From Strigamia acuminata (lineage: Eukaryota), in the NCBI GenBank assembly GCA_949358305.1, contig OX442314.1:18476001-18540000 (forward strand): a stretch of 64,000 nt of DNA, in the 5' to 3' direction. Positions 4,501 to 37,786 of the stretch are shown here, piece after piece. The notes below the pieces were generated by a model. It saw nothing but the letters and a program-made list of their open reading frames with translations, did no database searches and was not told where the DNA came from. Both the position numbers and the translations under genes were made by a program. The first letter of the stretch is position 1; every line of letters begins with the position of its first letter.

Positions 4501-6216
4501 TGTCGAAACGAGACCGGGCCTATTCTTTACCCTTGGGTTCAATGCCGTCCGTGGCGTCTATTCTAAGTGCCAGTCACATATTGGGCATTAAGGAAGAGCC
4601 CATTTCGTCTCCGTTGATGTTAATGGACACAGGTGAGAGGAGGAGAAGGAGTAAAAGGAGATGAAATTGTAATTGATTTTGTAATTGTAATTGATAGATG
4701 ATGATGTGGACGTACACAAACAGAGCTTTTCCGGCGTTTCGGGCGGGGGCTTCCTTGGACGCCGGGGAAGTTTTGGCGCTTGCGATCTTGGCGGCTCAGC
4801 GGGCGAGCAGGATTCGCGCGTGCTCACGTTAGCAGAGCAGATTATAGCGGCATTACCAGATCGAATCAAAGTGCCGGCGAGCGAGGCAGAGGAGACGATG
4901 GACGACGTGCAGAAAGACTTGGTGACAAGCACGAGTTCCGATCACGGCCACGAGGACTCGGTAGAAATGAACATTGAAGATTCGTCGTCTTCGCTTGTGC
5001 GGGCGGCGGATGCAGTTTTTGACTTTGAGTTCAGCGATCACACATACCGGTACTGTGACGTGGGAACGCCAGCGTCTTCGTTGAGTCCCACGTCATCCTC
5101 GTGTCTGCAGAGCCCTTGCAGTTTCACTCTCGACTCGCCGTCGCCACCGCCCACCACTGCCGATTTTTGCGAATTCTTTCAAGCTTCTGGAAAAATTATG
5201 GAGCGCGACTTCTCCAATCTTACTCTCTCTGGTATTTTGGCTTTTTACTTCGAGGGAAAAAAACGATGTCTGCGTAATCGAATGTGTTATGTGGTTGCAG
5301 ACAAAGAGCAGCGAGAGTTATACGAGGCAGCTAAAGTCATTCAAAAGGCTTACCGCCATTACAAAGGTCGAAAACGCCAGGAGCAGGACAAAGAACGTGC
5401 GGCCGCCATCATCATACAGAATTACTACCGTCGATATAAACAGGTTCTGCCTTTTTCTTCTACATCATTCCATATCGAATACACTTCGAACCATTATATT
5501 TACTCTTTTCAGTATGCGTACTTCAAACAAATGACTAGAGCTGCTTTAGTGATTCAAAGCCAGTTTCGCAATTATTGCGAGCACAAAAAGAGGTTTAAGA
5601 GGAGTCAGGAAGCCGCTGTTTGCATCCAGAACTACTATCGCAGCTACAAAGAACAACAAGAACGACTGCGACAGAGCCGGGAATCAACCCCGACTAGTTC
5701 AGGACTCAAGTAATTACAATCTTATCAGCAATTTTCATTTCGCTCAAACGTTTTCGATATTTTTAGACGCACCTATTCGCAGAGACGGCAACATCAGGCA
5801 GCTCGTAAAATTCAGCAATTTATGAGGCAGTCTAAGAATAAGTGAGTGATTTTTGTTGCTTTTTAAAAAGCTCTTTATCTAGGTTAAGTTGTAATAACTC
5901 TGTTGGTCTAATTGGATTTTTCTCCTCAATTTTAACGCTAACTTAGCGTGTGGGATTATTTGGATGGGAAAGCGGTGAGTCAGCTTGCGCTTGTCTTTTT
6001 TACTTGCCATTTTTCATTTTTGGTTCGCTTTTTTTCCCCTTTCCTTTCCTTTCCTTTCCTTTCCTTTGCATTGTTTTGTCGTTAGTGTGTTTTCGTTTGT
6101 GGTTTCAAGTTAACGAAACGCTCGATTTTTATAGATTACAGAAAGAGCGTGCTTTGGCTGCCGGAAACGAGACCCTAAGTCATCGGTCACGTCGGGACAG
6201 TCACCAGCCACCATAA
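1529..6216 (+). CDS. CAMTA: Calmodulin-binding transcription activator (5'-partial, multi-exon)
   Basis: The exon starting at 1529 reads [12 protein letters not shown], the end of the CG-1 DNA-binding domain. Also present: IPT/TIG domain ([23 protein letters not shown]...GVLRCFCP), ankyrin repeats ([24 protein letters not shown]) and IQ motifs ([44 protein letters not shown]). Introns are GT-AG. The 5' CG-1 exons lie upstream of the window. Confidence 0.97.
3590..3634. repeat. (TTTTA)n microsatellite in a CAMTA intron
   Basis: Direct tandem TTTTA units. Confidence 0.85.
5947..5974 (+). other. Putative 28-nt alternative microexon of CAMTA
   Basis: gctaacttag|CGTGTGGGATTATTTGGATGGGAAAGCG|gtgagt. 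Inclusion keeps an open frame through the last exon to TGA at 6252-6254. Confidence 0.65.
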
Positions 6217-9410: not shown

Positions 9411-12400
9411 TTAATATTTTCTACTATCATCATCATCAGATTTAATAGTTTTTGATTTAATATCGGGTTCATCATTGCCACTTGCATCTACGTCGAAACT
9501 TCCAATTGTCCTAGACCTAGACGATGCCGACGAAAGCAGCGATGTTTTACTCTGTTTATCAACCTCATTTGTTTCCTCAAATGTAGGCTCTACAAGCGTT
9601 ATTTCACTTTCACTTTCGTCAACTATCGTCATTGCATCTACTACATCAAAAGTCGTATTTGACTTCAGGTTACGGCTGCTAGTTATTGATGCGGCGTATG
9701 GTGCATTGAAGGTGGAGTCAGACTTTTTATATCTGCCACTAGTTCGTGTAACTCTCGTTTCAAAAAGGGACATATTAGGAGTAGCTGGCAATTCACCAGA
9801 AAACCCTTTTTTACCCATTAACCAATAGGTGGAAATTGTACCTATAGACTGAAGAAAAAACATTTTAGTCATTGCCAATATGCAAAAAGTCACTGAACTG
9901 GAATTTCCAATTCCTTTCTGAACATCAAATAATATAAACCGGTTTCATGTAGTAATGCTGCAGTTGTTTCGGATACTTGCACCGCGTAAGCTGAAATATC
10001 GATTTTATTTTTGTTTTTATTTTTGAATTTAAGTTTTAAATTAGAAAATTCTACGTTCTCCTTGAGATTCCATATGCTGCGCAATTGTAACGTCTTCACC
10101 AATTATGCAGTAGTAAGGCATTTTTAAACCAATGACTCCAGTAACGCACGAACCTGCATCAAAGTAAAAGGCTGTTAGTCTTATTGATGCTTAGTGTTTC
10201 ATTTATTTTAGTTTATTTATTTATTTTATTTATTTTGCCAGAGTGAATGCCAATTCGAATTTGAAGTCGTTTATATGGGATGTGTCTTATTGGGAAACAA
10301 GTAACCGCAGATAAAATGTGCAATGCCATTGTAGCAATGTCCTCGTGATGAAATCGATTTGCTGTAGGAATTCCGCCAACAACGCAGTCTAGAACAACAA
10401 AAGAGTGTTTGAAAATTATTAATATTATTATTATTATTATATTATTATTATATTATTTGTTATTAATTATTATACTATATTATTTAACAAGAAATCGCAA
10501 TTTCTAAAACGAGATTCGCAGTTTGATTGAATGTTTCGATCGGGTTTCGATGCAGGTCAAGCCAAGGTAGATGTTTTTTTTCTTCTTTTCTTTCTTTCTT
10601 TCTTTTATGTATCGTACATCGATTTGGTTACTTCATCCCGGGATCATTAGGTTTAATTCAGTACCGGTAGTGTTTATTAAAAAAATAAACTTGCAGCGCC
10701 CGACATATGGTTAGCGATGCCAAATGCATTTAGTGCGCATGTTAATACATAACATGGAATACGCAATTAGTACAATTTATTTTCCAAGATAAGGGAAATG
10801 AATAAGCTTTGATGATAAAACATCGGCACCAATGGCGGTCGTTATTTAAAAAGTGCAGGCAGGATGGCGGGGCGGGGACGGGATTATGCAGCTTATTTTA
10901 GTGAAACGAAAACTTACATACATCTCCAATAGTTTCCACCTTGAAAACACGAAATCTTTCGATAATATTATCAAAACATATGTATAAATCATTGAGTAAT
11001 TCAATAGTTTGCTCGGGTGTGCTCTCCTTTGCAATGTTTGTAAAACCGACAATGTTGCTACAATTTCATACAAAAGAAAGTTTTAACATTATTGGAAAAA
11101 TTGTACCATATATACCATAAACATCACCTATAAAATATAGTTACTTCACTATGCCATTCAGATATTGCATCATTACCCTGCTTAATGTTTTGAGCTACTG
11201 ACGGTGGCAAAATTCGCGAAATTAGTTCTTCGGTTTTACTTTTTTCTGATTGGATCTGAATGGCTTTTTCATTCAGGATATCTTGCAAGTGGTACGAATA
11301 TTTTTCCAACTACAAATCATACCATCAGTGTATCAACAAAATTAGATAACATTTCCTTGTGTAATTAGTTAATAATCGTTTGACCCTCGGTTTGCTCACT
11401 GAAGATGGTAGTTTTGATTTATTGTTTATTGTAGCGCCATTAATTTCATTAAAAGCACTTTATTATAGAGTTATCAGTTATTAGTTAAACTCACCATGTA
11501 AATGAGATTCTCAATTAGTTCTCCTTTTAAGGGGTGAATGACATTCAACTTTGCAGCTATTTCGCTAAAACTAGGTCGGTTTATTGGCTTTTCGGATGTG
11601 GTTTCTGATATAAGCTTGAAAAAAAATTTTAAACATTAAAATTCCATTCAAACTATCCAAAATCCAATCGTACTTTCATCACTCCCTTCTTTTCGGCAAA
11701 ATTATCAGGCATTTTAGGATTTTTTAAAGCGGGACGGATTGGACGTTTTGTGTCATAATCATGTGCTTCAAGAAGCTTCAAAGCAACTTTACAATCTATA
11801 TACATACAGCATAAATCAATTGTATTATTTACCCTTTTTATTTTTATGTTTTCAATATCTTCATGATCTCTCAGAAGTCTTAATAGCTCGTCTATTGATA
11901 AAATTTGTAGCTCGTGGAAGTAAGCAGATTTGTGAGTACAGATTTCAGTGAGAATGATGCCAAAAGAGAATACATCACTAAGTTTAGTTCCATTGTTTAA
12001 GTCATTAGGAGATGTGCAAACTCGCAACAACTCTGGAGATGTCCACAGCATGTATCTAAAAATGGACAAACCATCTTCAGTTTTTAACCAAGAAGAAAAA
12101 GTAGGCTACATTTACCTCTTCGTTTCTTCTACATAAACTTTAGAATTAATTTTTCGTATTCTTTGAATACCAAATCCTGTTAAAAATAATATTAAGTTCT
12201 CAATAGTCGGCTGACTATAACTTAGTCTGTGCCCGCTTGACGTCAAATTCAAACACTAAATTCCATTTTATGCGCACGAAAACACAAAAGAATAATACCA
12301 TTACCTGTTATTATTTCTAAAAATCACGCATTTGTGCGCAGTCAGGGATTTGTCAGTTTGATTTTGGAATCAAGAGTCCGGGCGCGAGACAGTTGTAGTT

Positions 12401-15400
12401 AAGCTCACCCGCTATTTTGCACAACCATTTGTTATCTATGAGACAATTTGAAGATTTTAAACGACCGTGAGACACAAGCTTAGTACTGTGTAGATATTCC
12501 ATTCCACTCGCAATGTCTCTCAAGATGGAAAACTTAAACGGCCATGTTAAATTGAAAACTTCATTCGCTAGAATTTTATCCAAACTTTCCTGAGTTGCAT
12601 GAAAAATATTACTGATTTTATATAACGAGGGAAGTGAAGGGTTCTTATTAGGCATACTTTAGGCATAATCTCCACAAGAATAGCTACGTTTGGAGCGTCG
12701 GGACAAATGCCATAAAAGCGGATCAAATTATCGTGTCTTATAGATTTGAGTAATATTATTTCGTCCCTAATTTCTGGTGAATTTATATTCAACGAATCTC
12801 TATCAAGTTTCTTTGCATATAAATCTTTTCCTTTCCAGACTATTGCGTTTTCAATATATGAAATTATGCTCGGAATGGTTCCACCACGACTTGAGTGCGG
12901 TGTGTCGATTTTTGGGGTTCGAACAACGTATGGCAGTGCAGTTAATGAAGGGCGATTGGAGAGTCCTAATTGGGTTGTTGGCGTAGGCACATCGGTTGGT
13001 GGCATCTTTTCTATAACATCTTTCCAGTTTACAAGCCAGTCAGAATTCCGCAGTTGTTCTCGTCTGATTCGCCTGCAGTCGATACAATTGCACATTAGTC
13101 GAAGGGTCAGCACGTGTCGAACGATAGAATCTAGGACAATTGAAAAGTTAACAGTGGTTTGGCGCCGCAAATATCGTGCGAAAATCAATGCGGAACAGGA
13201 AATGAGGGTGGCTGTATCCAATTAAATTCCAAAATTTGAAAAAATGTGTAGTGATAGCGAGCAATAAGCTCATCTGTCTCACCAATTAAGACAAGCATTA
13301 AATTATTTGTGATTATTGTAATAATTGCGTTAAATATTTTTGAAACGAACCACCGAGTTAACAAGTTAATCGTCCTAGGTAGAATAATCGCCCGATTTTT
13401 AAAAAATCTTATTGTTTTTATAGAATCACTTACATTCTCATATTGCATTTGTAAAAGTTAAAAATAATGGTGATCGCACCCACAATGCAAATCACAATAG
13501 CAATTATAAGAACTCCAGTCATGACCTGACAACTTTCGCCATGGTAGCCGACATAACATTTGCAGTAGTTAGGATGCACACATTCTCCATTTAAGCAGCT
13601 TACACTAAATTATAATTATAAATTAAATTAAGTTATTCTACAATAAATTATACACTTAATTATGGATACTTACGAACATATTGCAATAGCGCAAAACGGT
13701 CCAGACCAACCTTGGTGACAAATACAATTGAATGGTGATTTACACACTCCGTTTTGACAACTTTCACAGATAGCTGTATCGCAATTATCACCGCTGAATG
13801 CAGGTTCCATCGAGTTCTCTACTGTTTCATTGGAGAATACTTCGCCCACCCTATAACACCTGCACTCATTAGGACGCACACAAACACCATTCTTGTATAT
13901 ATGAGCACTTGTAGAGTCTATTCTTCCACCTCCACATCCATTATCGCAGAAAAAAGCTGGTAAAATCATATCAGTTCGGAGACTAAGCTGGCTCAGATTT
14001 TCAGTATATTTTTCGGCTGTCAGAGTTAAGGTTATGAATTTCATATGTCCGCGTGTGGACAAATAGCTGAGTAATTAAAAATAGGCTTAGTAATGTTTTT
14101 AAAATGTGTGAATCGGACTTACAATCTGGGGATAAGTCGAGTTTCGTTAGGTATTCGTAATGGAACATATGGCATGGAGAACGTTTTCATTTCGGCGCTA
14201 GAACTTCCAAGTGGTATTTCGATGATTCGCTCTAAAGTTCCTGAATTGTCCAATTGGACATCTCTCTTTTTCTTTTTGGCGTTTTTAACTATGTTTCCAA
14301 CAAGGTAATCATTTACACTAAACAATCGTGCTATTTTATCAATCTAAAAGTAAGATATTGGTGTCAAATTATTCCAGTTAAAGCTGTACTATGTACACAC
14401 ATACAAACAATGGAGGTTTCTTAACATTTCTTAGGTTTATTACATTTACTACGCCAACAAGTGTACCCCCCCTCCATTTTCCGTTTGGGAATTCTATTTT
14501 ACCAGTTAAGCCTTCAAAACTGATCTAAAAGTAAGGTAATGATTTATTTATCGTAAATCCCGTACTTCAATAGAACAACTTACTTCTTGTATCGTTTTCA
14601 CAGTTGATTCAAGGGTAATAGTTTCATTTTTTCGAATCAGCTCGTCTAAAGCGATGGCATAACACAGAACTACGTCATACCCCAAACCAATTTCTCCAGA
14701 AAGCTAAAATAATAATTTAAATAATAAAAATTTTAGGAGTATTTTGAATTTTGTTTCGTATTTCTTGGCAATATCTAGCATATTCTGAATAAACCCTATA
14801 CTATTATTATAGATTTTCGAACTTTGAAAGAGCGTTTAGCAATCGGTATTCCATTGTACTCGGCAGAATTCATTTCGTAGAAACGACGATTGATGTGGTA
14901 CCACAGATCGGAAGAGTAACCTGATACGTTGTGCACTCCTTGAAATATCAACATTCCTTCAAATGCTTCAGAACAAGTAGGTGTCTTTAAAGAAAGAGAG
15001 AGAAATAAATTGCCTTTGATGCTTATGTGCTTCAGAAACAAACGTGCAAAACATCAAAGCCGTGCTAGAATCATCAAAAACCTGTTGACAATATTCATGG
15101 TTGTCCTTCCAATCGAATTCTTCTTCCCCCAACCATTGGTAGCCGTGCATAGGAGCAAATTTATTACTGAAATTTGATCAGATATGCTCGGTCAATTACA
15201 TCACTGATTTATCTACTCATTTTTATCTACTTAATTGCTTGTCTGAACAGCCAATACTGCTTAGGGGGGTACACATGACTGTAAACTATTTTTGCTCCAG
15301 TTTTCTTTGCGTTTTCTATTTCTGTTGATAAGTCAACAAGATCGTCTACATGAATCTGGATATGGTAATCAATATTAATTAATTAATTATGGAAAAGAAA

Positions 15401-18323
15401 GTACCGAGTGTGCTACCGTGTAAGCATTGACAAAGCCATAAACAAGCAGTGAAGCTGCGAATCCGTAATCGACAGGTAAATCTGCATCTTCAATATTAAT
15501 CTACAAAAAAAAATATTATTTCAATTATTTGCTGATTTTTATGTATTAAAAAAAAATACTATGTAAGTCCACTGACGGTCAACCAAGAAATGACCTAAGA
15601 AAATAGAATATTGCAGCTCATTCCAAGTTAGAGCAAACAGTCCTGCTCCTGGATAGAACTCCTACGTTTGGGGAAAGAAAATAAAAGTTGCTGATCCTGT
15701 TTTGGCATGTATAAAACTCAAAGACTGACTGAACGAATAAAGGATTGCCATATTTCTTTATACGTTAAAATGGGCATATTAATGTCGGAAAGTTGAGGTA
15801 ACATTGCATCAGTTATCACATTATCACCGAATCCGATTATAGCTCTTGTTGTTTCGTGCGATTCACTCTGACAATACCCATGGTAATTAATATTTCTATA
15901 TAACCAGAAAAGGAATTTTAAAAACTTACTGCATTGATTGTTTCCAACATTTCATTGAATAACCTTGCAACATGTGCAATATCGAGTTCAGTGTCGTACA
16001 CCTTTAGTTTAATCGTGTGATCTTCAATGTATAAAGCTATTAATTTTAAAAAAATTACCGGTAAGTGAAACTATTTACTTACTTGAATTTTTAAGAAATT
16101 CAAACTTATTTTTGAATATTGGATCATTATTTGTCACATCGTTTATTGCAAACTGTGCAAATGTCGCTGATACCGCTTCAGAATCAATTTCGTGTCCCGC
16201 TGTATTAAAACGTCCGAACAAGCCGATATTTATGTCCCCTAAAAATATTAATTTATTGAGTAATAGTGAAGAAAGTAATGTTTTACGTGAGAAATTTACC
16301 TACACTCGTGTACGGTCTCGAAAGTTGTGACTCTAGAGTATTAATTCGCCTGAAACCCAAATCAGCTGTAAACTGGAATCGCACATTCGCTCCAGTCTCG
16401 AGAATGGCACCCGTGAATTTTCCGATTCCTCTGAATGTTTTCAATCTTCTATCAGAAATATTTATTGGCGGTACTGTTGTAACTGAAATTGGCTGAAGAG
16501 ACAACAAAGTTTGTGTTCATGATAAATGGTTTAATTTGTATAGACTAAAAATACTAACTAATGCCGAATCCAAACCAGAGAAAATTCGTCTATTGTTTTC
16601 GTCTAGTATCATTATCCATAAATTTGGTATGGCAAAGTGGGTGGAAACGGAAATTAAGGTGTCATTACTTCCACCTGTCATCTCGTTTTTACCTTCAATA
16701 TTATTAATCACTATTAATCTGGAAGCTAATTGTCCTGGTTTAATAAAAATCACATTGATCACTTGATTTAATTAAAATAATAATAATATGCTGATATATT
16801 TACGTGTTACAGTTATAGGTGCACTCAACTTGACAGATTGCAATGCATTGTTTGAGCAGTTCCTATTCAAGCTGTAAAGTTCCGCAATAAATGTTTGTAT
16901 TGGATAGCTTGAAAGACACACAGTATCTGAAGGGTCGCAGAATTGTACGAAGTTATATTGACCGGTACTATGATAATTTACGCAGGAGGAGACAAACTCT
17001 AGATAATCCATCGGTACTCGCGTCCCTGATCGAGGCATTAACAATGTTGCATTGAATAATACACTTCCATGTTTTTTGTTGGTAAAATAAATTTCTTGAA
17101 TGATTACATTATCAAATTGAACTAAGCCATTTACGGCTCGTTTGTGAAGAACTCGATCATAATTTCTGTAAGACGTGATCACTTCATCCCCTGCCAGTAC
17201 AACCTGCAATAATAAAAGAAGAAAATCGAAGAGATTTTTTGTATTTTGTTTAATAATTACTCATACTGAGGTATTGTAGACAAAATCTTGAACCAGAGCT
17301 TCTCGGGTGAACATCTTATCGTGATAAGACACTGTCACTTGCACAATGAGTGTAGAATCTAGACCATTGGTAATTCTTTGGGTTTGGTTGTTTGCATCAA
17401 CAATTTCCAATGATATAGAAAATGGGTTGTTAGCGGCGATTGAAAGCTCAGAACTTGGCTCAATCCATCTTAATTGGGCTGATCCTAAAGAGATGCCAAT
17501 GCTTCATGTTGCTGGCTGAATAATATCCTCAAGATTAATTCACATTTTAAACACTTACGCAAGTGAATTTTAAAGGGGTGTGTGAACGTGCTTATTTTTT
17601 CGAGTGGAGTGAGTTTGATGGTAAATTTGAGTCTTCGTAATAAGTATCCACTCTCTTCGGTTACTACATCGTGAGAAATTCCTTGTGCAATCAACTGATT
17701 GCCTTGTATTTGTATAGAAAGAGGCGTCGATTCAGAAGAACCATCTTTATTCTCGGTGCAGGTTGTTCTTAAAAATGAAATATTATACGATTCCATATTA
17801 ACTGAAATTTAGGATTTAATGAGCGTTACTACTTGAAATAAGGCCCGAGTTGGCTAAATCTTCTGGGATTGCTTAAATCAAAGTCGTTTGCTGCATATTG
17901 GCACAAACTTAATTTAACATTATCTCCGCTTATTAGCTGATCGATATCCTTTTCCGTTACAACTTTTACTGGCAATGTGGTAACATAAAAAAATCTAGGA
18001 TGTGTTGACGTTGAATACATCTCGTCTGTTGGGGTAATGGGTTGGTCGTTACTTTTGCACAAATAAGCCACAATTGGTCTGCTCATTCTTTGTTTATTAG
18101 CAACTGAATAAATTATTTGCGAGTCGTCAGTCGGCTCAGTTTCCGGTGGAAAATAGTTATTAAATACTCCTTTACTTGGGAAGCAAATATTATAAGCTAA
18201 AAGAAAAATTGGGATTATTTCTAATTTACTTCCCATTCCCATCCCAATGTACTCACCTTGAACCTGGATTTTCTCAATAAGTAATTTGTACACGTACATC
18301 AGCAATAAGAACTGATAATTCAT
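9411..18323 (-). CDS. Atypical receptor-type guanylyl cyclase (probable pseudo-cyclase) with N-terminal extension, ANF-receptor domain and EGF-like repeats; many short exons
   Basis: Signal-peptide-like start [15 protein letters not shown]-receptor-like domain from ~16238 (INIGLFGRF...FAINDVTNN). EGF-like repeats ([46 protein letters not shown]). TM helix [18 protein letters not shown]. Kinase-homology domain ([32 protein letters not shown]). Hinge (MEKYSYHL...[18 protein letters not shown]). Cyclase domain ([20 protein letters not shown]). Confidence 0.93.
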
Positions 18324-18437: not shown

Positions 18438-20104
18438 TCACAATACTAATAGTTTACTTCGGACGATTTTTGCTGCTTGTGTCATAGTTTTAATTGTCTT
18501 TTGTTTGGTTTCTTGCGTATTCTTCTTGTGCTCATTACGATGGGCCTTATACCATTGCTCAACTGGGCAAATGTAATCATTTTCTAAGTCAACTGAGTAT
18601 GTTAAATTTGTTTCGAAATTGACATACTTTGACAGTTAGTGCAAAAATAATATTTATATATTGGCCTCTTCGCATTTCGACATCTGAACAAAATGTTAGA
18701 GCAATAAATTTTTTTGTTTTGTTTTATATATGAGAGATGGAGATTTTTACCTATTACACACTATATATTTCGTTAAAATAGTTCCATTAGTCCCACAATT
18801 GTCACAATTTTTTAATCGCCGCCTATCAACTTTGAATGGTGAAACGTCCGAATATGTGTCTGTAACACTTTTACGCGGCGAGACTGCTATCTTTAGACCA
18901 TTTTTTGTTTTTATTGTTTTTATTGTTTTTTTTTTTTAAATTAGAAGGAGATTTTTATTATTAAATTAAATCCATAATTTACCAGTTTTCCAACTTGGCT
19001 TCTCACTGTCTTCAATTTCTCATCAAATTCGCAAATCATTTTTAGCCTTTCACGCTTTCGTTTTTCAATGACTCTAGTAATTTCTCCAAGGTGTTTAATA
19101 TTCTTTGTCATTTCGCTATCTTCACTCAGTTGAAATATTTTCCCTTCTTTTTTCTCCAACATATTACGTATCCAGCTTACTTGATTACCACCGACACCTA
19201 AAAATGTTACTAGATCTTCTCGCCACCACTTAACCAGGAACCTTTCAAGAGGCCGTGCTTTAAAATTTACATCTAAATAATCGTGAGGAATGGTCCAATA
19301 ACTCAAACTTTGATCTTCCATTTTGTCTGCACTTAACCACTTATAGAACACTTCGCAGAGAGCTGCACCAAAAGATATTTCTGTAAGATTGACGGTTAAT
19401 AACCTAACCTAAACCGTGAAAAACACAAAACAACTATAACATCTGATACTTTCATATGAAATACGACGACTACTTTGTCTGTATTTGTTACGGCTGGTGC
19501 AGAAGGTTCGTCGATACTAGTCGGTAACATTTTCTCTGCAAAATCACGATTGTTAAACGTGAACACAAATGTCAGAACTTTAAGTACTTACTTGGAAGCT
19601 TGCTCATTAATCTAATGACATCTAAACAATATTGACATTTTTCGTTAGTAGTGCCTAAAATTTCGAGTTAAATTCAAATAAATGGGTTTTGGAGGATTAC
19701 TGGTAGTTATACCGTCTAGTAAATGAATGTGAATATATTTATGAGCAGTTGTCATCATTCCTGGCAATTGTTCTTGTATCTAAAAATAATAATCAGTGAA
19801 TAAGTTGTTATAATAGATATTAAAAAAAGGAAATACTCTACCCATTTTAGAAGATAACAGTCGGGATTTAAACAAAATAATAACCAAAAACGAAACCAGA
19901 AAACCAAACCCTAAAATAAAAAACAAATTTTTATTTATTTATATTATATTATTAATTTTTTAAAGAAAATTTCATTACCTGTTCGGTTATCATTTGTTTA
20001 AAGAGAGCGGATCGATTGAGAACGAAGTTAGGCCCGCAACCAAATTTCATAACGTTGTAATAAGTATTAGAGTTTTCTTGTAGATTCAAGGGAACCAATT
20101 TCAT
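18438..20104 (-). CDS. Uncharacterised protein with C-terminal MYND-like zinc finger, paralogue A
   Basis: Hand-spliced GT-AG exons: MKLVPL...FGCGPNFVLNR / GLVFWFRFWLLFCLNPDC / ...KCQYC... / ISFGAALCEVFYKWL... / CDNC..CNR / CRNAKRPIYKYYFCTNCQ / EQWYKAHRNEH...LLVL*. Intron positions match paralogue B. Confidence 0.85.
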
Positions 20105-20353
20105 TTTGATTTTGATTGCAGTTTTTGTAAGTAATAGAAGATAATAAGTCTCTCTCAAATTTCGAAAGTCGAGTTGTGGATTTCAAACAATCAGATTTTT
20201 GTTTGGTTTGTTGACGTACTCGTATTTAGCCATCAATGAACAATTGAAAAACAAACAACAATCTTCAGCATTTGAATTAAACAATTGTTTTTATTGAAAA
20301 CACATACGAATCACAACAAAAAATAGTAAATCAAGGTTTTCTGTTTTTTTTTT

Positions 20354-21959
20354 TCAGTTTAAAGGAAAGAACTTCTTTTCTTCTAGTCTTTTTGTTTTGT
20401 ACCGAAATTCCAACAACTCTTCCATTAATTCACGGTGTTCTTTTTCATGACACTTAAACCAATGTTCAACTACACAAAACAGAATTTTAAATTTAATAAA
20501 ATTAAATAATTAAAATTAAAATTAAGTACCTTCGCAATTAATTTCACAATAATATCTTGGTTGCTGCCATTTTTCATGCCTACATCTGTGAAAACAATAA
20601 TTCGTTAGAAATTTATAATCATTTTCAGATTGTTAACTCACCTTCTGCACATCAAAAACGATTTTGATTTACTTCTAGTAGATTGACAATTAGCGCATAC
20701 ACGGCGTTTATTATTCATTCTTTCTATGTCGTGCATTAAAGTATTTTGTTCATCAGACGCTAAGTGCCTGCTAATCTTCTAATAAATACAAATTTAAAAA
20801 AAAATTGCTTAGTTTCAATGTACAAGTAATTATTTTATTTTTATTTTCACCTCAAATGTTTCGCAGCACTTATTTGTATGCATTTCATCCAGTAAATGGA
20901 TCGACGTTAGCCATCTTTTCGTAGCCATTACTATAGCTTGAACAATTTGGTAGGTGTTCTCATTGTATCGGGTAGTGTTTGTTAATTCTGATTTTAAACT
21001 CTTTAGATGATCGTGTGACAAATCACTCGGCCAACGAATTCTTTCTGCTGGTTCACCAAGCAGGATAACCAGTCTCTCTTCCCACTTTTTGATAAGATAT
21101 CTCTCTAATAGCCTTGGCTCGAATTTCGAATGTAAATATTCTTTGGGGATCTTCCAAACGCACTCCCACTTCTCGTCCGTCGCTGTTGCTGTCAACCATT
21201 TATAAAATACTTCACACAAGGCAGCACCGAATGCTATTTTGACGCAACGAGAAGTCATCTCGACCAAGGAAGGATGCTGTAAAGGAATGAAAATTAATTA
21301 ATTGTAATTGAAAGGTTTTAGAATGCTTTACTAGTGGTTTATAAATATTACTATCCTCTTCTGCTGACAACGGTAACACATCATCTAAAATTTATATTTT
21401 TTTTGTAATTTCATCTCTTGAGCTTTATGTAGTATTTAAATTCATTTTACCTGGGTGATTAGTCATTGTCTTTATTATATTTAAGCAGTTTGTACAAGAT
21501 TCATCTGCGGGCACTAAATTAGAAAGTATTTAGTAATTTACTTGCTACAGTGTATATACCATTTGTGTTTACCCTCTAGAAATGACTTGTGGATGGCAAT
21601 GAACAAACGATGCACCAATTTTGGCGATTGTTCCTCTAGCTGATGGGCAAGAAAGTTTATTTCATTTTAAATGGAATTTTGCTTTGAATTACCGATTTCA
21701 TGTACTGGCAACCGGGTTGGAAGCAAAACGTCAGCCAAAACCGGAACCAAAATGTGGAACCCTCAAAAAGTAATATGTCATTTGATTACAAAAATAAGTT
21801 TATAATTAAAATTATCGTCGGTATTTTAGATACCTGCTCGGCAATCATGTCTCTAAACAGTATTTCTCGGTTTAATACGAAGTTAGGCCCACAGCCAAAC
21901 TTCAAGATTGCTTCGTAAGAAGTTCTGTGGTCTTTTTGAACCAGCGAGATGAATTTCAT
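20354..21959 (-). CDS. Uncharacterised protein with C-terminal MYND-like zinc finger, paralogue B
   Basis: Spliced exons: MKFISL...FGCGPNFVLNR / GSTFWFRFWLTFCFQPGC / ...SCTNC... / IAFGAALCEVFYKWL... / VCANC..MCRR / CRHEKWQQPRYYCEINCE / VEHWFKCHEKEH...FPLN*. AATAAA lies downstream at ~20290. Confidence 0.88.
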
Positions 21960-22148
21960 GATTACAGTAGTTGGAATTAAAAGTGTTTGTTTAAATTTTC
22001 TCTGTAAATTTCGGATTACTAATCAAAAATGGATACCGTATTTATACAAGTGTGTGTACTGAATGTATTTTATAACAATTGAGAGAGGTTCATGACATAC
22101 AGAGATTTTATTGGATAGTTAAATAACAAACAATTTTTGAACATTTAT

Positions 22149-24179: not shown

Positions 24180-24375
24180 ATTCTAGCCTATTATTAGCAT
24201 TCTAAACTTGGCAGCACACACTAAGCAAAGTTCTAGAAAATTGGGCAGTTTTGTTGACTACACAGAGGCTTTATTTCCCTGACCTATTTCAGGTATGATG
24301 TTCCGTAAACACATAAGTCATGCTTGACAAACAAGCAGTGTAATTCTCTTATTTATCAGGACAGTGCTTCGTAAT

Positions 24376-26140
24376 ATGGAAATGGCGCATTCAAGTAGAC
24401 CTGGTAAAAAATCGCCTAAAAGGAATTGTTCGTACGGTGAATTGGAAACGAAAAAGGATGTTGAAGTGAGCATTCCTGGACTGGGAAGACTGACGGATCC
24501 TTCATATGGGAAAAAGAGCAAACTTGTATGGTTGCTAATAGTACTGTGCTGCTCTGTTGCTTGTGTTTATTTGACCGTTGATAGATTAATGCACTACCTT
24601 AGTATTCCTTTGGCCTCGAAAGTTGAAGTAAATCGAATGAACACTGTCACGTTTCCAGCGTTTACAATATGTTCTAGCAATTTACAATTGGACGGTTTCA
24701 AACAGTTGGCTAAATTAAAGACTCGTGAAGAATGCATCGCTCGAAATCGGAGTGATTGTGAATCGGAGGCGGAATATTTAGGTATCTAATTAGTTATTTT
24801 TATTTGGATTTTTTTAGCTGATTTTGTTCCCTATCTTAGTGCAATAACAAGTCTTACTGTGACTATTTACGAACCTGAAATAGACGTTGATTTAAACTTG
24901 GCTTATTATGTATGTGAATAATGATTTGTACAGTTTGATTATATAATACCCAAGTGTTATAAGTTTTAAAAAAAAAATTGTTTTTAGCTAATTCCGCATG
25001 GTGTAGCTGATGAGCACTTGATGGGATTTGAGTTTCTCATCAATGAATTTGAGCTTATTCCAGCTGGCAATCTGTTGAAAGTAAAACTACACGAGGAAAG
25101 AGTAAGAAACTATAAACAATCACGATTACCGGTACATGTTTAATAATATTTTTTTTTATATTTTGGATTTTGCACACAATAGTTTCATTTGAAGAATATT
25201 GGACAATCAAAATGTTATGAAATGAAGGAAGAAGTAGAGCGCATTAAAAAATGTGCTACCGGTACTGAATTACTTCGAGTTGAATTGTGCAGGTTAGAAA
25301 ATCTTAAGTAATTAGTGATGATAGTTGCTTAATTTTGGGCTTTTAGTCTAGTTAATATTCTCTTATTCTTAGTCCAGTCTTACATCTGGTTGATTAAAAA
25401 ATGAGAAATAAGATGTTTTGGGTTGAGGTCATTGTGTTTGAATTATAACATTTGCTACAAATTGAAAAATAGCAAATATTATTTAATTTTTGGTATAAAA
25501 TCAGCAAAACATCCTAGTTTATGGTGATTATCATTGCGTTAACAGATTATAAAAATATAAGATGGAATCGATTATACTCGTAAGCATACATAATATCGTA
25601 TTGAATTTTATCGTGTCCCAAGACAATCAGCACCTGATTAAAATGAAAGTGACAATCGTAGGCGCATGCGCACATATAGTAGATTATAATTATTTCCTGA
25701 AATCAGATTAAATTACTAATATGATTTAAAACGTGTTGAAAAATAGAATGCCTAGCTGTCCAGAGTGTACTCTCCAATGTAAGTCACTGAAGGATATCCC
25801 AGAGCCTGATGAAAGAATGTTCAATACATATTTGGCAGTACTAAAAACATTCTGTCATTCCCGGCCAATATGTATTGAATCGCAATATGCGATTTCAATT
25901 GATACCGCACGAGTTGAGAAGAAGAAGAACGATAAGAAAACAACTATAATAATTCGAATGGCTGATGATACAGTTGATACTGTTGAACAATTTATTTCTT
26001 ATACGTTTCCCAGTCTAATTAGTGACCTGTTTGCTTATTGGAGTTTCTTTTTAAGTTTATCCGCTCTTGTTTTTGCTGAAATTTTTGAATATCTTTTTAA
26101 AACACTTGCAGAATGCATTAAAAGGTGTTGTGCCAAATAA
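24376..26140 (+). CDS. Divergent DEG/ENaC (pickpocket/ASIC-like) subunit 1, internally deleted, possibly a pseudogene
   Basis: TM1 (VWLLIVLCCSVACVYL), hallmark motif VTFPAFTICS, Cys-rich thumb (CHSRPICIESQY) and TM2 region (YTFPSLISDLFAYWSFFLSLSALVFAEIFEY). Lacks ~65 aa present in the paralogue. Confidence 0.8.
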
Positions 26141-26969
26141 TATATCAAAAATAAATTCCTAAGATATTTTTAATTTCTAGTGTCCTACTTTTTTGTTTTT
26201 TTAATAAGCTTATAAATTCTGTTTTGAGAATATTTTGTGAGCATTTTATTTTTGTTTTCTAATTTATTCTCTCGACTTGTTGTAATCGCAATAAAAGATC
26301 ACCAATTAACAAACTACGTAAACTATTTTTCCAAAAGGAAAGCAATATGCTGAAGTTTAGGTTATAAATTATTTCTGGTTTGATATAAAACAGCATCAGC
26401 AAATTGACGTTGGAAAAAGCTGCACCCTGCTGCTTTCAATAATATGATACCAAGTATCAACGCACACGTACTGTATTTTGCAACTCGTAAGGGGAAAATA
26501 TGATGAACAGTTCTTAAATTAACTGAAGGTACAAATTGAAATAATAGTTATTTATGATTTAGCATTATTTTAATATGTATATTGCACCATTTAGAAAACC
26601 ATTCATTTTGTTTGATATTCAATAGGACTGAGTGTTTGACATTTTTGAGGTTTATACAAATATAAAAAGGATGCTCTTTTAATTTAAAGAAGATAACACA
26701 CATGTTATTTCCAGTATTATCAGTAAAACTATATCCGCATCCTGTAAACACTAACAGAATTTCTCGTGCTATTTGAATAGCATCTTTTTCACCACCTTCT
26801 AAAAATATAAGATATTGGAGAAGTGGCGGAAATCTTCAGACCTTGAGCTGCACGGATTGCTTGTCGTGAGCAACTCGGCTACCTATCTGCATTCAAACTT
26901 GCCTACGTAAGTGTGAGAAAACAAGATGGATTGTAATTGTGCTCTGATTAATTGTTAACTTACAGGCAA

Positions 26970-28760
26970 ATGGAGCTAGACAATTTCACCGAAAACAAAG
27001 TGTCAAAACATTGCTCGTGTTGCCAATTGAATAAGAAAAAAAACGTTGATGTGAGCATTCCTGGGCTGGGAAGACTGATGGATCCTTCTTATGGGAAAAA
27101 GAGCAAATTCGTGTGGTTGCTATTAGTACTTTTCTGCACGATTGCTTGTGCTTATTTGACCATTGATAGATTAATGCACTACTTTAATATTCCTCTGACC
27201 ACTAAAATTGAAGTTAGGCGAATGCACAATGTCACTTTTCCTGCGTTTACAATATGCTCTAACAATATTCTATATGGGTTGAAGCCTTTAATGACATCAA
27301 AGGTTCATGAAGAATGCATAGCCCGAAATCGAAGTGATTGCGAATCGCCGTCGGATCTGGAAAATATTCCGTTTCGTGATTTAAATGTTTCTTTGGAAGA
27401 TACATGGTATGAGTACGGTTTTTCTTTCGCTGACATTGAAGTTAGTGTAGTGGTAAGAATATTTTGTATTCAATCAAGACTTAAAAATAGCAGATGTTCA
27501 CTTTTATCAACTTGATAATTGGGTATGGTAATGGTAACGTTTGGATCTTGAACCATTAGTCTTCCAGATGTACCAGCAAAAGTGAATGCTTTCTATTTTT
27601 AATATACAATATTAATATTAATATATTTTAATAATCATCTCTCACCGTTTTCCTTGTTTGGGTTTTTGTAAGGGAATGCCGACTATTAATGTTAAAGAAT
27701 ATTTGCTAAATAACGAGACTTCAGATTCAGACGGATTTGAATTTACCGCACAAGACATCATCATGGGAAGTTGTGTCGTTTTTAGGCACAGTAAGTAAAG
27801 CTTAAACAGACAGTACATTTTTTTTGTTAATTACCGTAGTTATGCTTTCTTTTTTAGCTGGCGTAGTTCCTTATCTTAGTACGGCAACAAGCCTCACAGT
27901 GAATATTCGCGAAACTCCAATAAACCCAGATTCAAAATTGGCTTATACTGTTTGTTCTTGTTCATAATAAATTTTTACGGTTTTGTTATATAGCAAGTGT
28001 TATTTAAAGATTTGTTCTTAGCTAATCCCACACGGCGAACGTGATGACCAGTTGACAACATTCGAGTTTCTCACAAATGAATTTGAGGAATTTCCAGCTG
28101 GTTACGAATATAAAATAAAACTTCATGAAGAAAATGTACGTAAGCAAAAATAATCATAATAATTGTATTTCATATTTTACACTTTTTGTCTAGTTTTTTT
28201 TAAAGAATACTGCATACAAAGCCTGTTACGATCCGACGGAAGAAATTAGACTAATTAAAGAATGTGCCACGGAGTTGCTTCAACCCGAAGTGTGCAGGTT
28301 GGTGAAGTGAAAAAATGATTAAGGTTCTGAAAACAAAAAATTAAATAAACGTTTGAAATATAGGCTGCCCGGTTGTCCCGATAGTTATGCCGAATGTGAA
28401 TCATTAAAGGACGTTCCAGAGGTTGCTGCTGGCGAAAAATATAATTCATTTTGGATGGATCTTAGCAAGTACTGTTTTCCGCGACCCGTATGTATCGACA
28501 CGCAATACATAATTTATATTGACACGTCAATGGTTAATGAAGACAGTGAGAGCACAACAATAACAATTCGAATGTCTGATGATACCATCGATGTTGTTGA
28601 GCAAGTTCTTGAGTACACGTTTCCTGATTTAGTAAGTGACTTATTTGCATATTGGGGTTTCTTTTTAAGTTTAACCGCTCTTGTTTTCGCTGAGATTTTT
28701 GAATATCTCATAAAAACACTTCGAGAATGCATTAAAAAGTGTTGGAGAGGCGCCAAATAA
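26970..28760 (+). CDS. Divergent DEG/ENaC (pickpocket/ASIC-like) subunit 2
   Basis: TM1, VTFPAFTICSNN, MGSCVVF, CFPRPVCIDTQY and YTFPDLVSDLFAYWGFFLSLTALVFAEIFEY. Tandem paralogue of the gene at 24376-26140. Confidence 0.9.
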
Positions 28761-30816: not shown

Positions 30817-33800
30817 TTATAATTTCATTTCCCAAAACAACAAATACGCGTCGTTAACATTTACAGTTGGATTGTTTTTATTTAAGCCTTTTCTAACGTC
30901 TTTATAACCTCTTCCACCCATAATAGTAAGCAGTGTTCTAGGAGCATCTGAACTAACTTCCAATTTACTAGGTGAAGCTACTAATGGCTCCGCAATAGAA
31001 GTTGCTGAAGATGTCCTCGATGAGTCACCATCAGAACTAGACGACATATAAATAGGTGCTGTGGCTGCTAAATTGGTCAAATCTAATGACTTGGGTCTGC
31101 CCGCCTTCACTCTGAGCCTACGATCCAACGTGCTTATTGTTGTTGGTAAAAGCAAATCAGGTTCACTTCGTCGTAGAGATTCGTACAACGACGATTCACC
31201 ACCTTCGTCGAAGTACTCGCGAATGTTCAGCAAGTCACCGTACAAACCGTACACATCATAATCCCCATCAGTGTGGTTAATCCCACTGTCCTCGTCGTCT
31301 TCCCTCGACATTTTCAATGTTGAAGATGTAGAAATACTCGGCTTGATACCTGTGCATTGAACAAAAACAATTTATTTTCGTGTTTAAAGTTAAACTAATC
31401 AAAGTTACAATTTTCACTTCTGAATTATGATCAACAGAAGAAATTGCAATATAATTTTAGTTTATGCTTATGCAATCACGTCATTGAACTCATTATGCAG
31501 TTAAAAAGCATTCGTAAGTGAAAAATCCATGCAACATTTTAACTTGCCTGCGAACAATCCGGGTGTACTAAACTGAGCTCTGAGCGGCACCTTTGGTGTG
31601 ACGGGTGCGGAAGAACAAGACAGTTGTTTAGTCAGTTTTAAATGTATCCCCTTATCATTGTTCATTTTTGGTGGCGTAGACACCGTGCTGGGACTCGTCA
31701 ATGCCAATAAGGTAGTAACTGGGCCAGCTAACGTATGATAAGAAAGCGAGGCTCGACCGCTAATTATTGGAACTCCTTCTAAACGTGGTAGTGGAATGTT
31801 GAGAGCCACGCCCGCATTTGTTCCAACCCACAGAAGTCCTCGACACGCCAACATGGATGTGACAAAAATGCACCGTGGAGATGTTTGGTCGTTTTCTAAA
31901 ATTAAATCAAATAGATCGCATCAAAAATGGTACATTTTCCCAACAAACGTCAGATAACCTACCCGATACTCTGCCGATGTTTGCGGCAATGTTTATGTCT
32001 TGTAAGTGTTTGAATGTTTCCATATGATACAAGCAAACAGTGGCCGTATTGCGCAAATTGATCCATAATCCAATACCGGACTGCGCTAATATGTAAACGT
32101 TGCCTAGTTGTTCGTGGTTGATAGTAAAACTTTTCTGTAATTGAAAGTGTTTACCGTACATTAAATAATTTTATAGCAATTTTAAATGCGTTTAAACTTA
32201 CCGCCACTTGTCCGGTTTGACAATCAATTAGTGATACTTTCCTGCCACACGCGCAATAAATAAAATTTTTGTAAGGCAACAAAGATGTCACTGCATCCGA
32301 TCCCAAATTAACGATCATATTTTCCTTTAAGCACCATCCCTTCTCTAAAATTTTATTAATTTAATTAATAACTATTTAATAAATACAATTTTTTCCATTT
32401 TCTTACCTGACTGACGGAAGATGACGACGTTGCCATTGGCCAATCCAGCGTACATTTTGTCCATGTAGCGCTTTAACTGCAATACTGGAGCTGAAGTGGC
32501 AACATATCCGAGGCTTTCACGCCGTTCTGGATCAAATCCAGAATATACTAAAATTCTACGACTGTCCGTCCCCATCCACACTGTCCATCCTTTAAGTCCA
32601 GTTTCTCTCGGGTCTAAACCTGGTGCTGGTTCCATGCTTGAGATTCTCACTTCAGCGAGTTCAAAAGAACAAATCTTTTTGACATTTACTTGTCGCAGGT
32701 TTAAAATACTGAAATAAGTAATTACAATTAACGGTAAAATAATAAAAATCAATAGAATTCCTTACCTAATATTACTATTAACACCATCGCTGCTGCACAC
32801 CCAGACGTAATTAAAACTTTTACTACTCGCACCCTTCCCACAAGTCGTATAATAACACGCACACTTCACTTCGTTATTATGCGGTGCGCTGTGCACCGAT
32901 GTAGCCCTGACAAACAAAGGCATTTTTGTGCTCGGCCTCAGTTCAGTTTCGGAAATATTCCACGCGGGTGAATTATTAAGATCTGCTTATAAAAATTAAA
33001 CATAATTATTACAATTTTTTTAAAAAAATTAATTGATAGGTTTTAAAAAACAGAACCTAATGCCAGTTGTGCCATTCTTAGATCGGTAATCCACTCTTTG
33101 GTAACTGAAGGTTTATTGGTTTGGAATGTAATCAGTTCTTTCGAACTCCTTTTAAAACAAAAATAAAAAAATGTCAGTTCCTTAGCAATTGGAATTTGTT
33201 GATGTATACTCTTTCCGAACTCAAGAAGAGCCCTGGAAGCTGGGCTCCCATTGGCCGAGCTATCTCACTAGTGTAGCAGTAGTTGCATTGCAGTTCCAAG
33301 TAGGCCAATGAGAGCCCAGCTTCCAGGGCTCTTCTTGAGTTCGGAAACAGTATAGTTCTTACTTATTCTTCGAACAAATATGTAACTGAAGACAACAGTT
33401 ATCGATCCACTTTACTTCTTCATCTTTTTCCTGAATCTCGCGTATAATTTGTTGCGCATAATTTTGCAAATCTGCACCGAGACCCTGTTGGAAACAAAAC
33501 CAGTTACAAGAGTGAAAAATTAAATATAAAACGATTTTTTCTTACATCGTAATTTCGTTTTAAACTCGCTGCTAATGTAGTCATTCGTCCAAATATTTCG
33601 TAATCATGCATCAGATCGCCCATTTCCTGATATAAAGCATGTGCGCTGTCGCTCGCACCTTTGCTATGCCTATTTTTAACTAAACCTTTCACTAATAATC
33701 TATTTAAATTCGGCGATAATTCTTCTTGAATTTCCACATCTGACACTGGAACCGCCCATTTTAATGAATAACGTTCGTTGTTCAAGCTGTGACCAGACCT

Positions 33801-36800: not shown

Positions 36801-37786
36801 GTCCTTCTTCCATTCGACGTCGAAATGTTATTATTAATCACTGCCTCCATGTCCAAACTGAGCTGGCGCAAACCTTGTTCGTGTTGTCTTTCAACTCGCT
36901 GCACCTCGTACAACACATCGTTCATTAACCCCCTCTTGGAATCGCACGTGACTGTGTCAGCGATTGATACCGAAGAGCACGAAACACTTGCGTCGGTGCT
37001 GTTCCCACTTCCCATCGATAACGCAACGAATTCCACTTCTTCGTAATCGGATGAATCTACCTGTTGACACGAGTCGGAGTCAAGTGCCTCGTAGTCGTAT
37101 TCACTTTGCTCGATTGTCTTTTCATCAATCCGCGAGGATTCCTTTGTCTCGTCGACCTCGACCTGCGTTTTCACCTCTTCGTAGGTGGCCGACTCGAGTG
37201 CATCTCTTTGGCATTCGTCATTCGTCTCGAATTTGGCAACATTTGCCAGCTGAGAAATCTTAAAATCCTCTTCAATTTGTTCGCCTTTGCCTTTCTCGCC
37301 CACAGTCACTGCTCTTTCTCCTCCTTCACTTTCTTCGTCTTGTTGTTGTGGACTAACCTCATTCTTGTCTTGGAGGGGAGTTTCTTCTGCAATGGCGATG
37401 GGGTGTGCAGCTTGGTCCACCCTCCCTGCACCAGTTTGGCAGCCCGAGTTCGAGTTAGAGTTCGTGTTCGAGACGCAAGGTTGAACCGTACCTGCAATAA
37501 TCTCGTGTTCGGTGGCAATTACTTCGTCAAATTCGACTCCGACAACTGTATTGTGTTCGCTAGAGTCGACCGTATCATTCGATGATGATGGTGATGATGA
37601 TGACGCAAAAAACACCGGCACCGCTTCAGTCGCTGCTGTTTCATTGGTTTCGTCCGTCCCAGGTGAATGTGGCAACACCTGCTCTAGGGGTGGGCACATG
37701 TGTCCTTTTTCACCTGGTTGGATCATAATAACAAGATGGTTGAAAAGATGTTTGTTATTACGTGAGTCATTCCATCTTAAGGTCAT
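30817..37786 (-). CDS. ARHGEF10: Rho guanine nucleotide exchange factor 10-like (DH-PH plus C-terminal WD40-like propeller)
   Basis: DH domain ([59 protein letters not shown]), PH domain ([15 protein letters not shown]), propeller ([28 protein letters not shown]) and C-terminus GGRGY...YLLFWEMKL. Long acidic first coding exon; the exact start codon is uncertain. Confidence 0.95.
33209..33350. mobile_element. Short palindromic MITE in an ARHGEF10 intron
   Basis: Arms 33205-33256 and 33303-33354 are reverse complements with 2 mismatches. TATA flanks both sides, consistent with a TA target-site duplication. Confidence 0.85.

What the first reader, a model, noticed from the sequence alone, without database searches (positions are those of the whole stretch)
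13430..18323. Unusual rGC ectodomain: ~550-aa orphan extension + ANF domain + polybasic site + EGF repeats
Seen: about seven exons (18323 to ~16300) encode roughly 550 aa of beta-rich-looking sequence before the ANF-receptor-like domain. After that domain come AKKKKR|DVQ (~14260-14282), a linker and about three EGF-like repeats (13530-13950) next to the membrane. Established: typical metazoan rGCs have only the ANF/periplasmic-binding domain outside the cell. Inference: an adhesion- or gamete-recognition-type receptor whose ectodomain may be shed by a furin-type protease, leaving an EGF-TM-pseudoenzyme stub. I do not recognise this architecture.
Basis: partly seen in the sequence, partly recalled or inferred. 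Interest (0 to 1): 0.8.

Follow-up and report, generated by a model that had tools for sequence, protein, structure and literature searches.

The report
Centipede-type dead receptor guanylyl cyclase
This gene encodes a cell-surface receptor of the guanylyl-cyclase family with an unusually long outer part (two likely Ig-like repeats, a ligand-binding domain, a probable protease cut site and three EGF repeats) and an inner enzyme that has lost key catalytic residues; a centipede protein has the same design, so it likely belongs to a barely studied myriapod receptor family that is predicted to act without making cGMP.

Summary
The minus strand carries one 32-exon open frame (18323-9411, about 1,930-1,950 aa): seven exons (542 aa) before an ANF domain, KKKKR|DV, a linker, three EGF repeats, one TM helix, a kinase-homology domain and a cyclase domain. 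The extension is not wholly orphan. The only convincing hit among 1.84 billion representatives, Strigamia maritima T1JDE2, has the same order of domains; 24 of 32 exons match it colinearly. Exons 1-2 stay unmatched. The extension holds two related repeats, which a language-model search links weakly to SMCHD1/Big_1/filamin Ig-like domains. T1JDE2 has a canonical furin motif (RKKR|S) at the aligned place, the only basic run in each ectodomain. The cyclase lacks one metal Asp and both the catalytic Asn and Arg, as does T1JDE2, so it is predicted to be dead and unable to complement a partner. The Strigamia genome paper names a 'novel family' of nine receptor cyclases without describing it. Best reading: a convertase-processed, non-catalytic co-receptor that likely damps partner cyclases. 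No RNA was available and no fold was usable; adhesion or gamete roles have no support. New variant of a known kind.

The parts
18257..18323 (-). Exon 1: ATG and short hydrophobic N-terminus, possible signal peptide (aa 1-22)
   Evidence: In-frame stop 4 codons upstream and strong donor AAG|GTGAGT. Hydropathy peak only 1.7 over 9 aa. No homologue (159 of 200 shuffles score as well) and weak codon score: the least certain exon.
17833..18196 (-). Exon 2: orphan segment with 3 Cys (aa 23-143)
   Evidence: Coding by codon score (0 of 2000 shuffles) and open frame (1 of 5000 shuffles). No Pfam or NCBIfam hit. The homologue's model lacks this part.
17559..17767 (-). Exon 3: beta-rich-looking segment (aa 144-213)
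   Evidence: 21 of 70 identical to T1JDE2 18-90, z 10
17029..17484 (-). Repeat A, likely Ig-like beta-sandwich (aa 214-345; exon 4 and part of exon 5)
   Evidence: 70 of 124 identical to T1JDE2. Related to repeat B (hhalign prob 84%, E 7.5e-6; 1 of 1000 shuffles). Atlas lead to SMCHD1-Ig6/Big_1/filamin clusters, 0.80-0.86.
16804..17028 (-). Cys-containing spacer between the repeats (aa 346-419)
   Evidence: 17 of 67 identical to T1JDE2
16300..16734 (-). Repeat B, likely Ig-like (aa 420-542; exons 6-7)
   Evidence: 54 of 121 identical to T1JDE2; internal repeat test
16239..16299 (-). 61-nt phase-1 intron joining the extension to the ANF domain
   Evidence: G|GTAAAT...TTTTTAG|GG; no ATG or leader in the gap; both sides are adjacent in T1JDE2 (360-420, then 425-474)
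14405..16238 (-). ANF-receptor (periplasmic-binding-like) domain, exons 8-17 (aa 543 to about 956)
   Evidence: 153 of 391 identical to T1JDE2, whose aa 474-792 match PF01094 at E 1.9e-10
14257..14277 (-). Polybasic site KKKKR|DV (aa 979-985), predicted proprotein-convertase site
   Evidence: Only basic run of 4 or more in the ectodomain; aligns with RKKR|S (843-847), the only such run in the T1JDE2 ectodomain
13952..14256 (-). Linker of about 85 aa, no known family (to aa 1068)
   Evidence: 16 of 67 identical to T1JDE2 over aa 1001-1068; no match to the repeats
13529..13948 (-). Three EGF-like repeats (aa 1070-1186, 18 Cys)
   Evidence: Pfam EGF_DL_JAG, EGF_2, EGF_PEAR1L; 55 of 119 identical to T1JDE2
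13460..13516 (-). Single transmembrane helix (aa 1191-1209)
   Evidence: Only 19-aa window above 1.6 in hydropathy (3.15)
11495..12858 (-). Kinase-homology domain; lacks the HRD Asp (usual in this family) and also the Asp of the DYG motif seen in NPR-A
   Evidence: Pfam PK_Tyr_Ser-Thr; 202 of 286 identical to Strigamia T1IL80; NPR-A alignment
9810..11309 (-). Coiled coil and class III cyclase domain, predicted dead: first metal Asp is Asn1647, Asn/Arg are Thr1765/His1769; Glu1687, Asp1691, Arg1737 and Cys1758 are kept
   Evidence: Pfam HNOBA and Guanylate_cyc; positions; residue roles from PMC2576301
9411..9809 (-). Ser/Thr- and acid-rich C-terminal tail and stop codon
   Evidence: poorly conserved (24 of 102 to T1JDE2)

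Best explanation
This is one gene for a single-pass receptor of the guanylyl-cyclase family, shared with the centipede Strigamia; its long ectodomain is likely cut by a proprotein convertase between the ANF domain and the EGF stalk, and its cyclase, which lacks three of the key catalytic residues, is predicted to be dead, so it likely works as a non-catalytic partner that damps cGMP output. Steps: (1) shown: domain order, conserved basic site, loss of the first metal Asp and of the Asn/Arg pair, and strong conservation of the intracellular part (70-71% to T1IL80). (2) Inferred: cleavage in the secretory path yields an N-terminal Ig-like/ANF piece and an EGF-TM-pseudokinase-pseudocyclase piece. 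(3) Inferred from the two-fold active site of class III cyclases: paired with an intact or half-active paralogue through the coiled coil, it would spoil both sites, since it supplies neither both Asp nor the Asn/Arg. (4) Speculative: ligand binding to, or loss of, the outer piece would change the pairing and so set the partner's cGMP output.
For: phmmer with exon 5 against 1.84 billion representatives gave 2 hits: T1JDE2 (E 2.4e-14) and a Calx-beta repeat protein (E 5.6e-4, judged chance). T1JDE2 has ANF, EGF, kinase and cyclase domains in one model; 24 of 32 window exons match it in order; tblastn agrees independently of my model. The basic run is unique in each ectodomain and lies 40-41 residues after the same aligned Asn, in a stretch otherwise 14-24% identical. 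A [RK]3-R run arises in 49 and 120 of 2000 shuffles of the two ectodomains. Asp-to-Asn and Asn/Arg loss are shared with T1JDE2; residue roles from PMC2576301. An intact 32-exon frame and 155 of 221 identity in the cyclase region to T1IL80 argue for a kept function. Heterodimeric receptor cyclases with missing residues are known in C. elegans.
Against: The window's site has Lys, not Arg, at P4, and furin prefers R-X-K/R-R (PMC6223083). Exon 18, which holds the site, does not match T1JDE2 significantly on its own (10 of 200 shuffles); the site alignment rests on flanking anchors. Only one full-length relative was found, and it is an automatic gene model with visible errors (no start Met, intron-like insertions, a missing piece of the cyclase). 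The closer relative T1IL80 keeps both metal Asp, so the family is not uniformly dead. No partner gene lies in the window. Exon 1 is a weak signal peptide.
Confidence: 0.45

Rival explanations
1. Adhesion or mechanosensing receptor: the Ig-like repeats bind a cell or matrix surface, the cut ectodomain is pulled off or shed, and the stub signals through the pseudokinase as a scaffold, with no link to cGMP.
For: Tandem repeats with an Ig-like lead, conserved basic site above an EGF stalk, doubly dead cyclase.
Against: The Ig-like call is a lead only (named clusters score 0.80-0.86). The coiled coil and cyclase fold are strongly conserved, which fits pairing with cyclases. Nothing here bears on tissue or gametes.
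Confidence: 0.22
2. Atypical but active subunit: with a complementary paralogue it forms one working site, as ODR-1/DAF-11 do, using the kept Glu, Cys, second Asp and Arg.
For: Guanine-reading Glu1687 and Cys1758, Asp1691 and Arg1737 are kept; T1IL80 keeps both Asp; nine family genes are reported in Strigamia.
Against: Each of the two faces lacks an essential residue: one metal Asp on one, Asn and Arg on the other.
Confidence: 0.15
3. The receptor is not cleaved; the basic run is a loop feature (for example it binds sulphated glycans), and the protein acts as a full-length decoy or clearance receptor.
For: Non-canonical P4 in the window's protein; only two sequences support conservation.
Against: Both runs end in KR, and the homologue fits the furin consensus exactly.
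Confidence: 0.12
4. Gene-model artefact: 18323-16300 is a separate gene, or the locus is a decaying pseudogene.
For: No RNA evidence was obtainable; the homologue is also only a predicted model; one GC-AG intron with a weak donor at 10238.
Against: A 61-nt canonical in-phase intron with no start or leader for the ANF part; the same adjacency in Strigamia; an open frame over 32 exons.
Confidence: 0.06

Closest known systems
Strigamia maritima T1JDE2 (UniRef, 'guanylate cyclase', 1836 aa; P0003)
   Same: Whole domain order from aa 144 on; two repeats; basic site at the aligned place; three EGF repeats; Asp-to-Asn and Asn/Arg loss; 25-56% identity in ectodomain parts, 52-54% inside
   Different: Its model lacks a counterpart of exons 1-2; its site is canonical RKKR; it is more distant inside than T1IL80, so likely a paralogue
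Strigamia maritima T1IL80 (773 aa; P0001)
   Same: Last EGF, TM, kinase-homology (71%) and cyclase (70%) regions; closest relative found
   Different: The model starts at the third EGF (probably truncated); it keeps both metal Asp; the model breaks at the Asn/Arg helix, so those residues cannot be read
[quoted passage not shown]
   Same: Same species as both relatives; function stated as unknown
   Different: The paper gives no architecture or gene list in the parts seen, so identity with this family is inferred, not tested
Mammalian NPR-A / GC-A (PDB 9BCV and others)
   Same: ANF-type ectodomain, TM, kinase-homology, coiled coil, cyclase; best solved match to both relatives
   Different: NPR-A is about 1030 aa against about 1950 here; it has no extension or EGF stalk (established knowledge) and keeps all catalytic residues
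C. elegans ODR-1/DAF-11 heterodimeric receptor cyclase
   Same: Subunits that lack catalytic residues and act in pairs
   Different: Each worm subunit supplies residues for one shared site; this protein is defective on both faces

Membership tests
Receptor (transmembrane) guanylyl cyclase family | N-terminal signal peptide | tested here: inconclusive
   Short, moderate hydrophobic stretch in exon 1; no predictor available; no homologue
Receptor (transmembrane) guanylyl cyclase family | ANF-receptor-type extracellular domain | tested here: met
   PF01094 E 1.9e-10 in T1JDE2, 39% identical region in the window; single exon E 0.092
Receptor (transmembrane) guanylyl cyclase family | One TM helix, then kinase-homology domain, coiled coil and class III cyclase domain | tested here: met
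   (HNOBA below its cut-off, E 3e-4)
Receptor (transmembrane) guanylyl cyclase family | Guanine-specifying Glu and Cys | tested here: met
   Glu1687 and Cys1758 against NPR-A (roles)
Catalytically active guanylyl cyclase | Two metal-binding Asp | tested here: not met
   First is Asn1647 (codon AAC at 11056-11054; covering contigs show no difference); second kept
Catalytically active guanylyl cyclase | Ribose-orienting Asn and transition-state Arg | tested here: not met
   Thr1765 and His1769; Leu and Tyr in T1JDE2
ODR-1/DAF-11-type complementary half-enzyme | One face of the active site complete | tested here: not met
   Both faces lack a residue
Furin substrate | R-X-K/R-R motif | tested here: not met
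   Window K-K-K-R; met in T1JDE2 (R-K-K-R) (consensus)
Kexin/convertase substrate | Paired basic K-R on the lumenal side | tested here: met
   K982-R983, conserved in T1JDE2
Kexin/convertase substrate | Site exposed and cleaved | not testable with these tools
   No model of this region; needs a blot
SMCHD1-Ig/Big_1/filamin-type Ig-like domains | Profile match or beta-sandwich fold | tested here: inconclusive
   No Pfam or NCBIfam hit; Atlas named clusters 0.77-0.86; fold model pLDDT 36
Strigamia nine-gene 'novel' receptor cyclase family | Member list or defining sequence | not testable with these tools
   Not given in section 19 or in the 9 of 57 supplementary files searched

The most novel reading that the evidence does not exclude
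Centipedes and their kin have a family of two-chain receptor pseudo-cyclases: Ig-like repeats and an ANF domain are cut from an EGF stalk by a convertase, as in Notch or adhesion GPCRs, and release or pulling of the outer piece switches a doubly dead kinase/cyclase module. This would be a receptor guanylyl cyclase lineage turned into a cleavage-gated, cGMP-free receptor.
Probability: 0.22. Interest if true: 0.78.

Novelty: new variant of a known kind. Interest (0 to 1): 0.55.

Why it matters
Animal receptor guanylyl cyclases usually read ligand with an ANF-type domain alone. This locus gives an anatomy to what is probably the unexplained Strigamia family: extra repeats, an EGF stalk, a conserved convertase site and a cyclase defective on both faces. 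My paper searches found no convertase-processed receptor cyclase and no description of this architecture. If the reading is right, it shows how a cGMP receptor becomes a non-catalytic regulator, and it gives direct tests (cleavage, pairing, activity). It rests on two sequences and no experiment, and seems confined to one arthropod lineage.

Tried and rejected
No RNA holder listed, so splicing is not shown by reads. Word-based homologue searches with exon 5 and exon 21 found none (0 of 161 and 0 of 139 candidates). Pfam and NCBIfam gave nothing for exons 2-7, nor Pfam for the T1JDE2 N-terminus. The second phmmer hit (P0004, Calx-beta repeats, E 5.6e-4) was dropped as chance. The metagenome scan with T1JDE2 gave 3 loci of 81 candidates, all generic kinases at 27-31%. 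AlphaFold of the T1JDE2 extension with a six-row, partly misaligned alignment gave pLDDT 36; its Foldseek search had no match at E 0.001 or better and is uninformative. A PDB profile search with that alignment found nothing. A fold of exon 2 was never run. The complex predictor was not available, so whether the two cleavage pieces stay together has no verdict. Exon 3 and the post-site linker were tested as further repeats and rejected (hhalign probability under 1%). My first count of four EGF repeats was wrong; there are three. Horizontal transfer of the repeats from protists was considered (top Atlas clusters include ciliate and euglenozoan records) but cannot be argued from these rows; PMC9151784 has no 'cyclase' or 'EGF' term. 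Earlier findings of this scan: none relevant. Residue numbering was not recomputed for the 1932-aa variant.
Full report
Gene model. The window is from an intron-rich animal. On the minus strand I built a 32-exon model from ATG 18323 to the stop at 9411: 1951 codons, no internal stop, 30 GT-AG introns and one GC-AG intron (donor 10238), 24 of 31 introns between 46 and 74 nt. Comparison with the homologue favours an acceptor at 16022 and a donor at 15081, which would give 1932 aa (read by hand); numbering here is the 1951-aa model. Contigs of two public runs cover most of the locus and show no differing letter in the long pieces over the gene; they may be the source of the window. No RNA holder was listed.

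Relatives. Two word-based searches failed. A third, with exon 22, gave 2 hits of 11 candidates, the best being Strigamia maritima T1IL80 (77% over 60 aa; EGF, kinase, cyclase). phmmer with exon 5 over 1.84 billion representatives gave 2 hits, the real one being Strigamia T1JDE2 (E 2.4e-14). T1JDE2 carries ANF, EGF, kinase and cyclase domains behind a 420-aa stretch with no Pfam hit. Against it, 24 of 32 exons beat all 200 shuffles, in order; exons 1, 2, 11, 12, 18, 23, 28 and 32 do not. tblastn of T1JDE2 on the raw window agrees. So the architecture is real, shared with a centipede and rare in the library; the library keeps one protein per 50% cluster and only one exon was searched, so more distant bearers may be missed. 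That the host is a myriapod is inferred from these hits only.

One gene or two. The extension joins the ANF domain through a 61-nt, phase-1, canonical intron with no start codon or leader in the gap, and the two sides are adjacent in T1JDE2. T1JDE2 is itself an automatic model with visible errors, so cDNA is still needed.

The extension. It splits into an orphan part (aa 1-143), a conserved beta-rich-looking part (144-213), repeat A (214-345), a Cys spacer and repeat B (420-542). A and B are related (1 of 1000 shuffles; hhalign 84%, E 7.5e-6, over 25 columns), and are the best conserved parts of the ectodomain with the EGFs (56% and 45%). The Atlas feature search with repeat A of T1JDE2 returned unnamed clusters at 0.90-0.91 and named ones at 0.80-0.86, all Ig-like: SMCHD1 Ig 6 (on 25% of members), GEX2 Ig, Big_1, filamin; exon 5 gave the same SMCHD1 cluster at 0.77. 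This is a lead, not a test: the fold model failed (pLDDT 36). Exon 2 looks coding but has no relative. Exon 1 is a weak signal peptide and the least sure exon.

The basic site. KKKKR (979-983) is the only run of four or more basic residues in the ectodomain, and RKKR (843-846) the only one in that of T1JDE2; such a run arises in 49 and 120 of 2000 shuffles. Both lie 40-41 residues after the same aligned Asn near the end of the ANF domain, in a region otherwise 14-24% identical. Against this, exon 18 alone is not a significant match (10 of 200), and the window has Lys at P4, whereas furin prefers R-X-K/R-R (PMC6223083, passages). Convertase cleavage is likely but not shown. Cleavage need not mean shedding: the pieces could stay together, which I could not test.

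The inside. By the residue roles in PMC2576301 (passages) and the NPR-A alignments, the cyclase keeps Glu1687, Asp1691, Arg1737 and Cys1758, but has Asn1647 for the first metal Asp and Thr1765/His1769 for the Asn/Arg pair; the Arg before the specificity Cys is Tyr1756. T1JDE2 shares the Asn and has Leu/Tyr for the pair. T1IL80 keeps both Asp; its model breaks at the Asn/Arg helix. Each site of the dimer takes two Asp from one chain and Asn/Arg from the other, so this chain can complete neither, unlike ODR-1/DAF-11 (PMC5225109 and PMC8045692, passages). The kinase-homology domain also lacks the Asp of NPR-A's DYG motif in all three proteins. Yet the inside is 70-71% identical to T1IL80, which points to a kept non-catalytic job.

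Mechanism. I commit (0.45) to a convertase-processed, non-catalytic co-receptor that pairs with family members and lowers their cGMP output, under control of its ectodomain. Domain order, site conservation and residue loss are shown; cleavage, pairing and inhibition are inferred; the ligand is unknown. An adhesion or force sensor signalling through the pseudokinase is the main rival (0.22). Nothing supports a gamete role.

What is known. [quoted passage not shown] It gives no architecture there, nor in the 9 of 57 supplementary files searched; five files were unreadable and the rest unsearched, so a gene list may exist there. That T1JDE2 and T1IL80 belong to those nine is my inference. Nine paper searches, seen as listings only, showed no account of this architecture or of a convertase-cut receptor cyclase; subscription journals are largely not covered. 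PMC9151784 was term-searched without hits. The comparisons with Notch and adhesion GPCRs, and the labels CAMTA, mGluR and RhoGEF for neighbours, are recalled.

Verdict. Observation confirmed; interpretation partly supported; new variant of a known kind; interest 0.55.

Noticed in passing
window 10238-10154 (-): GC-AG intron with a weak donor (G|GCAAAA) inside the cyclase exons; a covering contig shows the same letters, and the exon end fits both Strigamia relatives.
   Followed up: partly
window 18438-22022 (-): Tandem pair of unknown genes upstream: ORFs 18941-19408 and 20830-21297 share a motif, as do 19952-20182 and 21786-22022; Cys-rich, zinc-finger-like exons at 18602-18935. No Pfam hit. 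The last ORF stops only 114 nt before the receptor's ATG and has a possible phase-1 donor at 18457 that could splice to exon 2.
   Followed up: partly
window 24328-28760 (+): Two tandem DEG/ENaC channel genes (Pfam ASC), 69-81% identical in DNA blocks.
   Followed up: partly
window 4691-5713 (+): IQ-motif gene (Pfam IQ), CAMTA-like by recall; coding GC about 52% against 38% for the receptor gene.
   Followed up: no
window 30817-37885 and 41892-55672 (-): A RhoGEF-like gene and a metabotropic glutamate receptor-like gene, labelled by recall from the ORF translations.
   Followed up: no
window 12236-12400 and 13200-13320: Short multi-copy repeats inside the two longer introns of the kinase region (high depth, many loose ends); a 150-bp imperfect palindrome lies at 33205-33354.
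   Followed up: no
P0001 (T1IL80): The closest relative is annotated as starting at the last EGF repeat, resembling the predicted cleavage stub; most likely a truncated gene model whose upstream exons should be looked for in the Strigamia scaffold.
   Followed up: no
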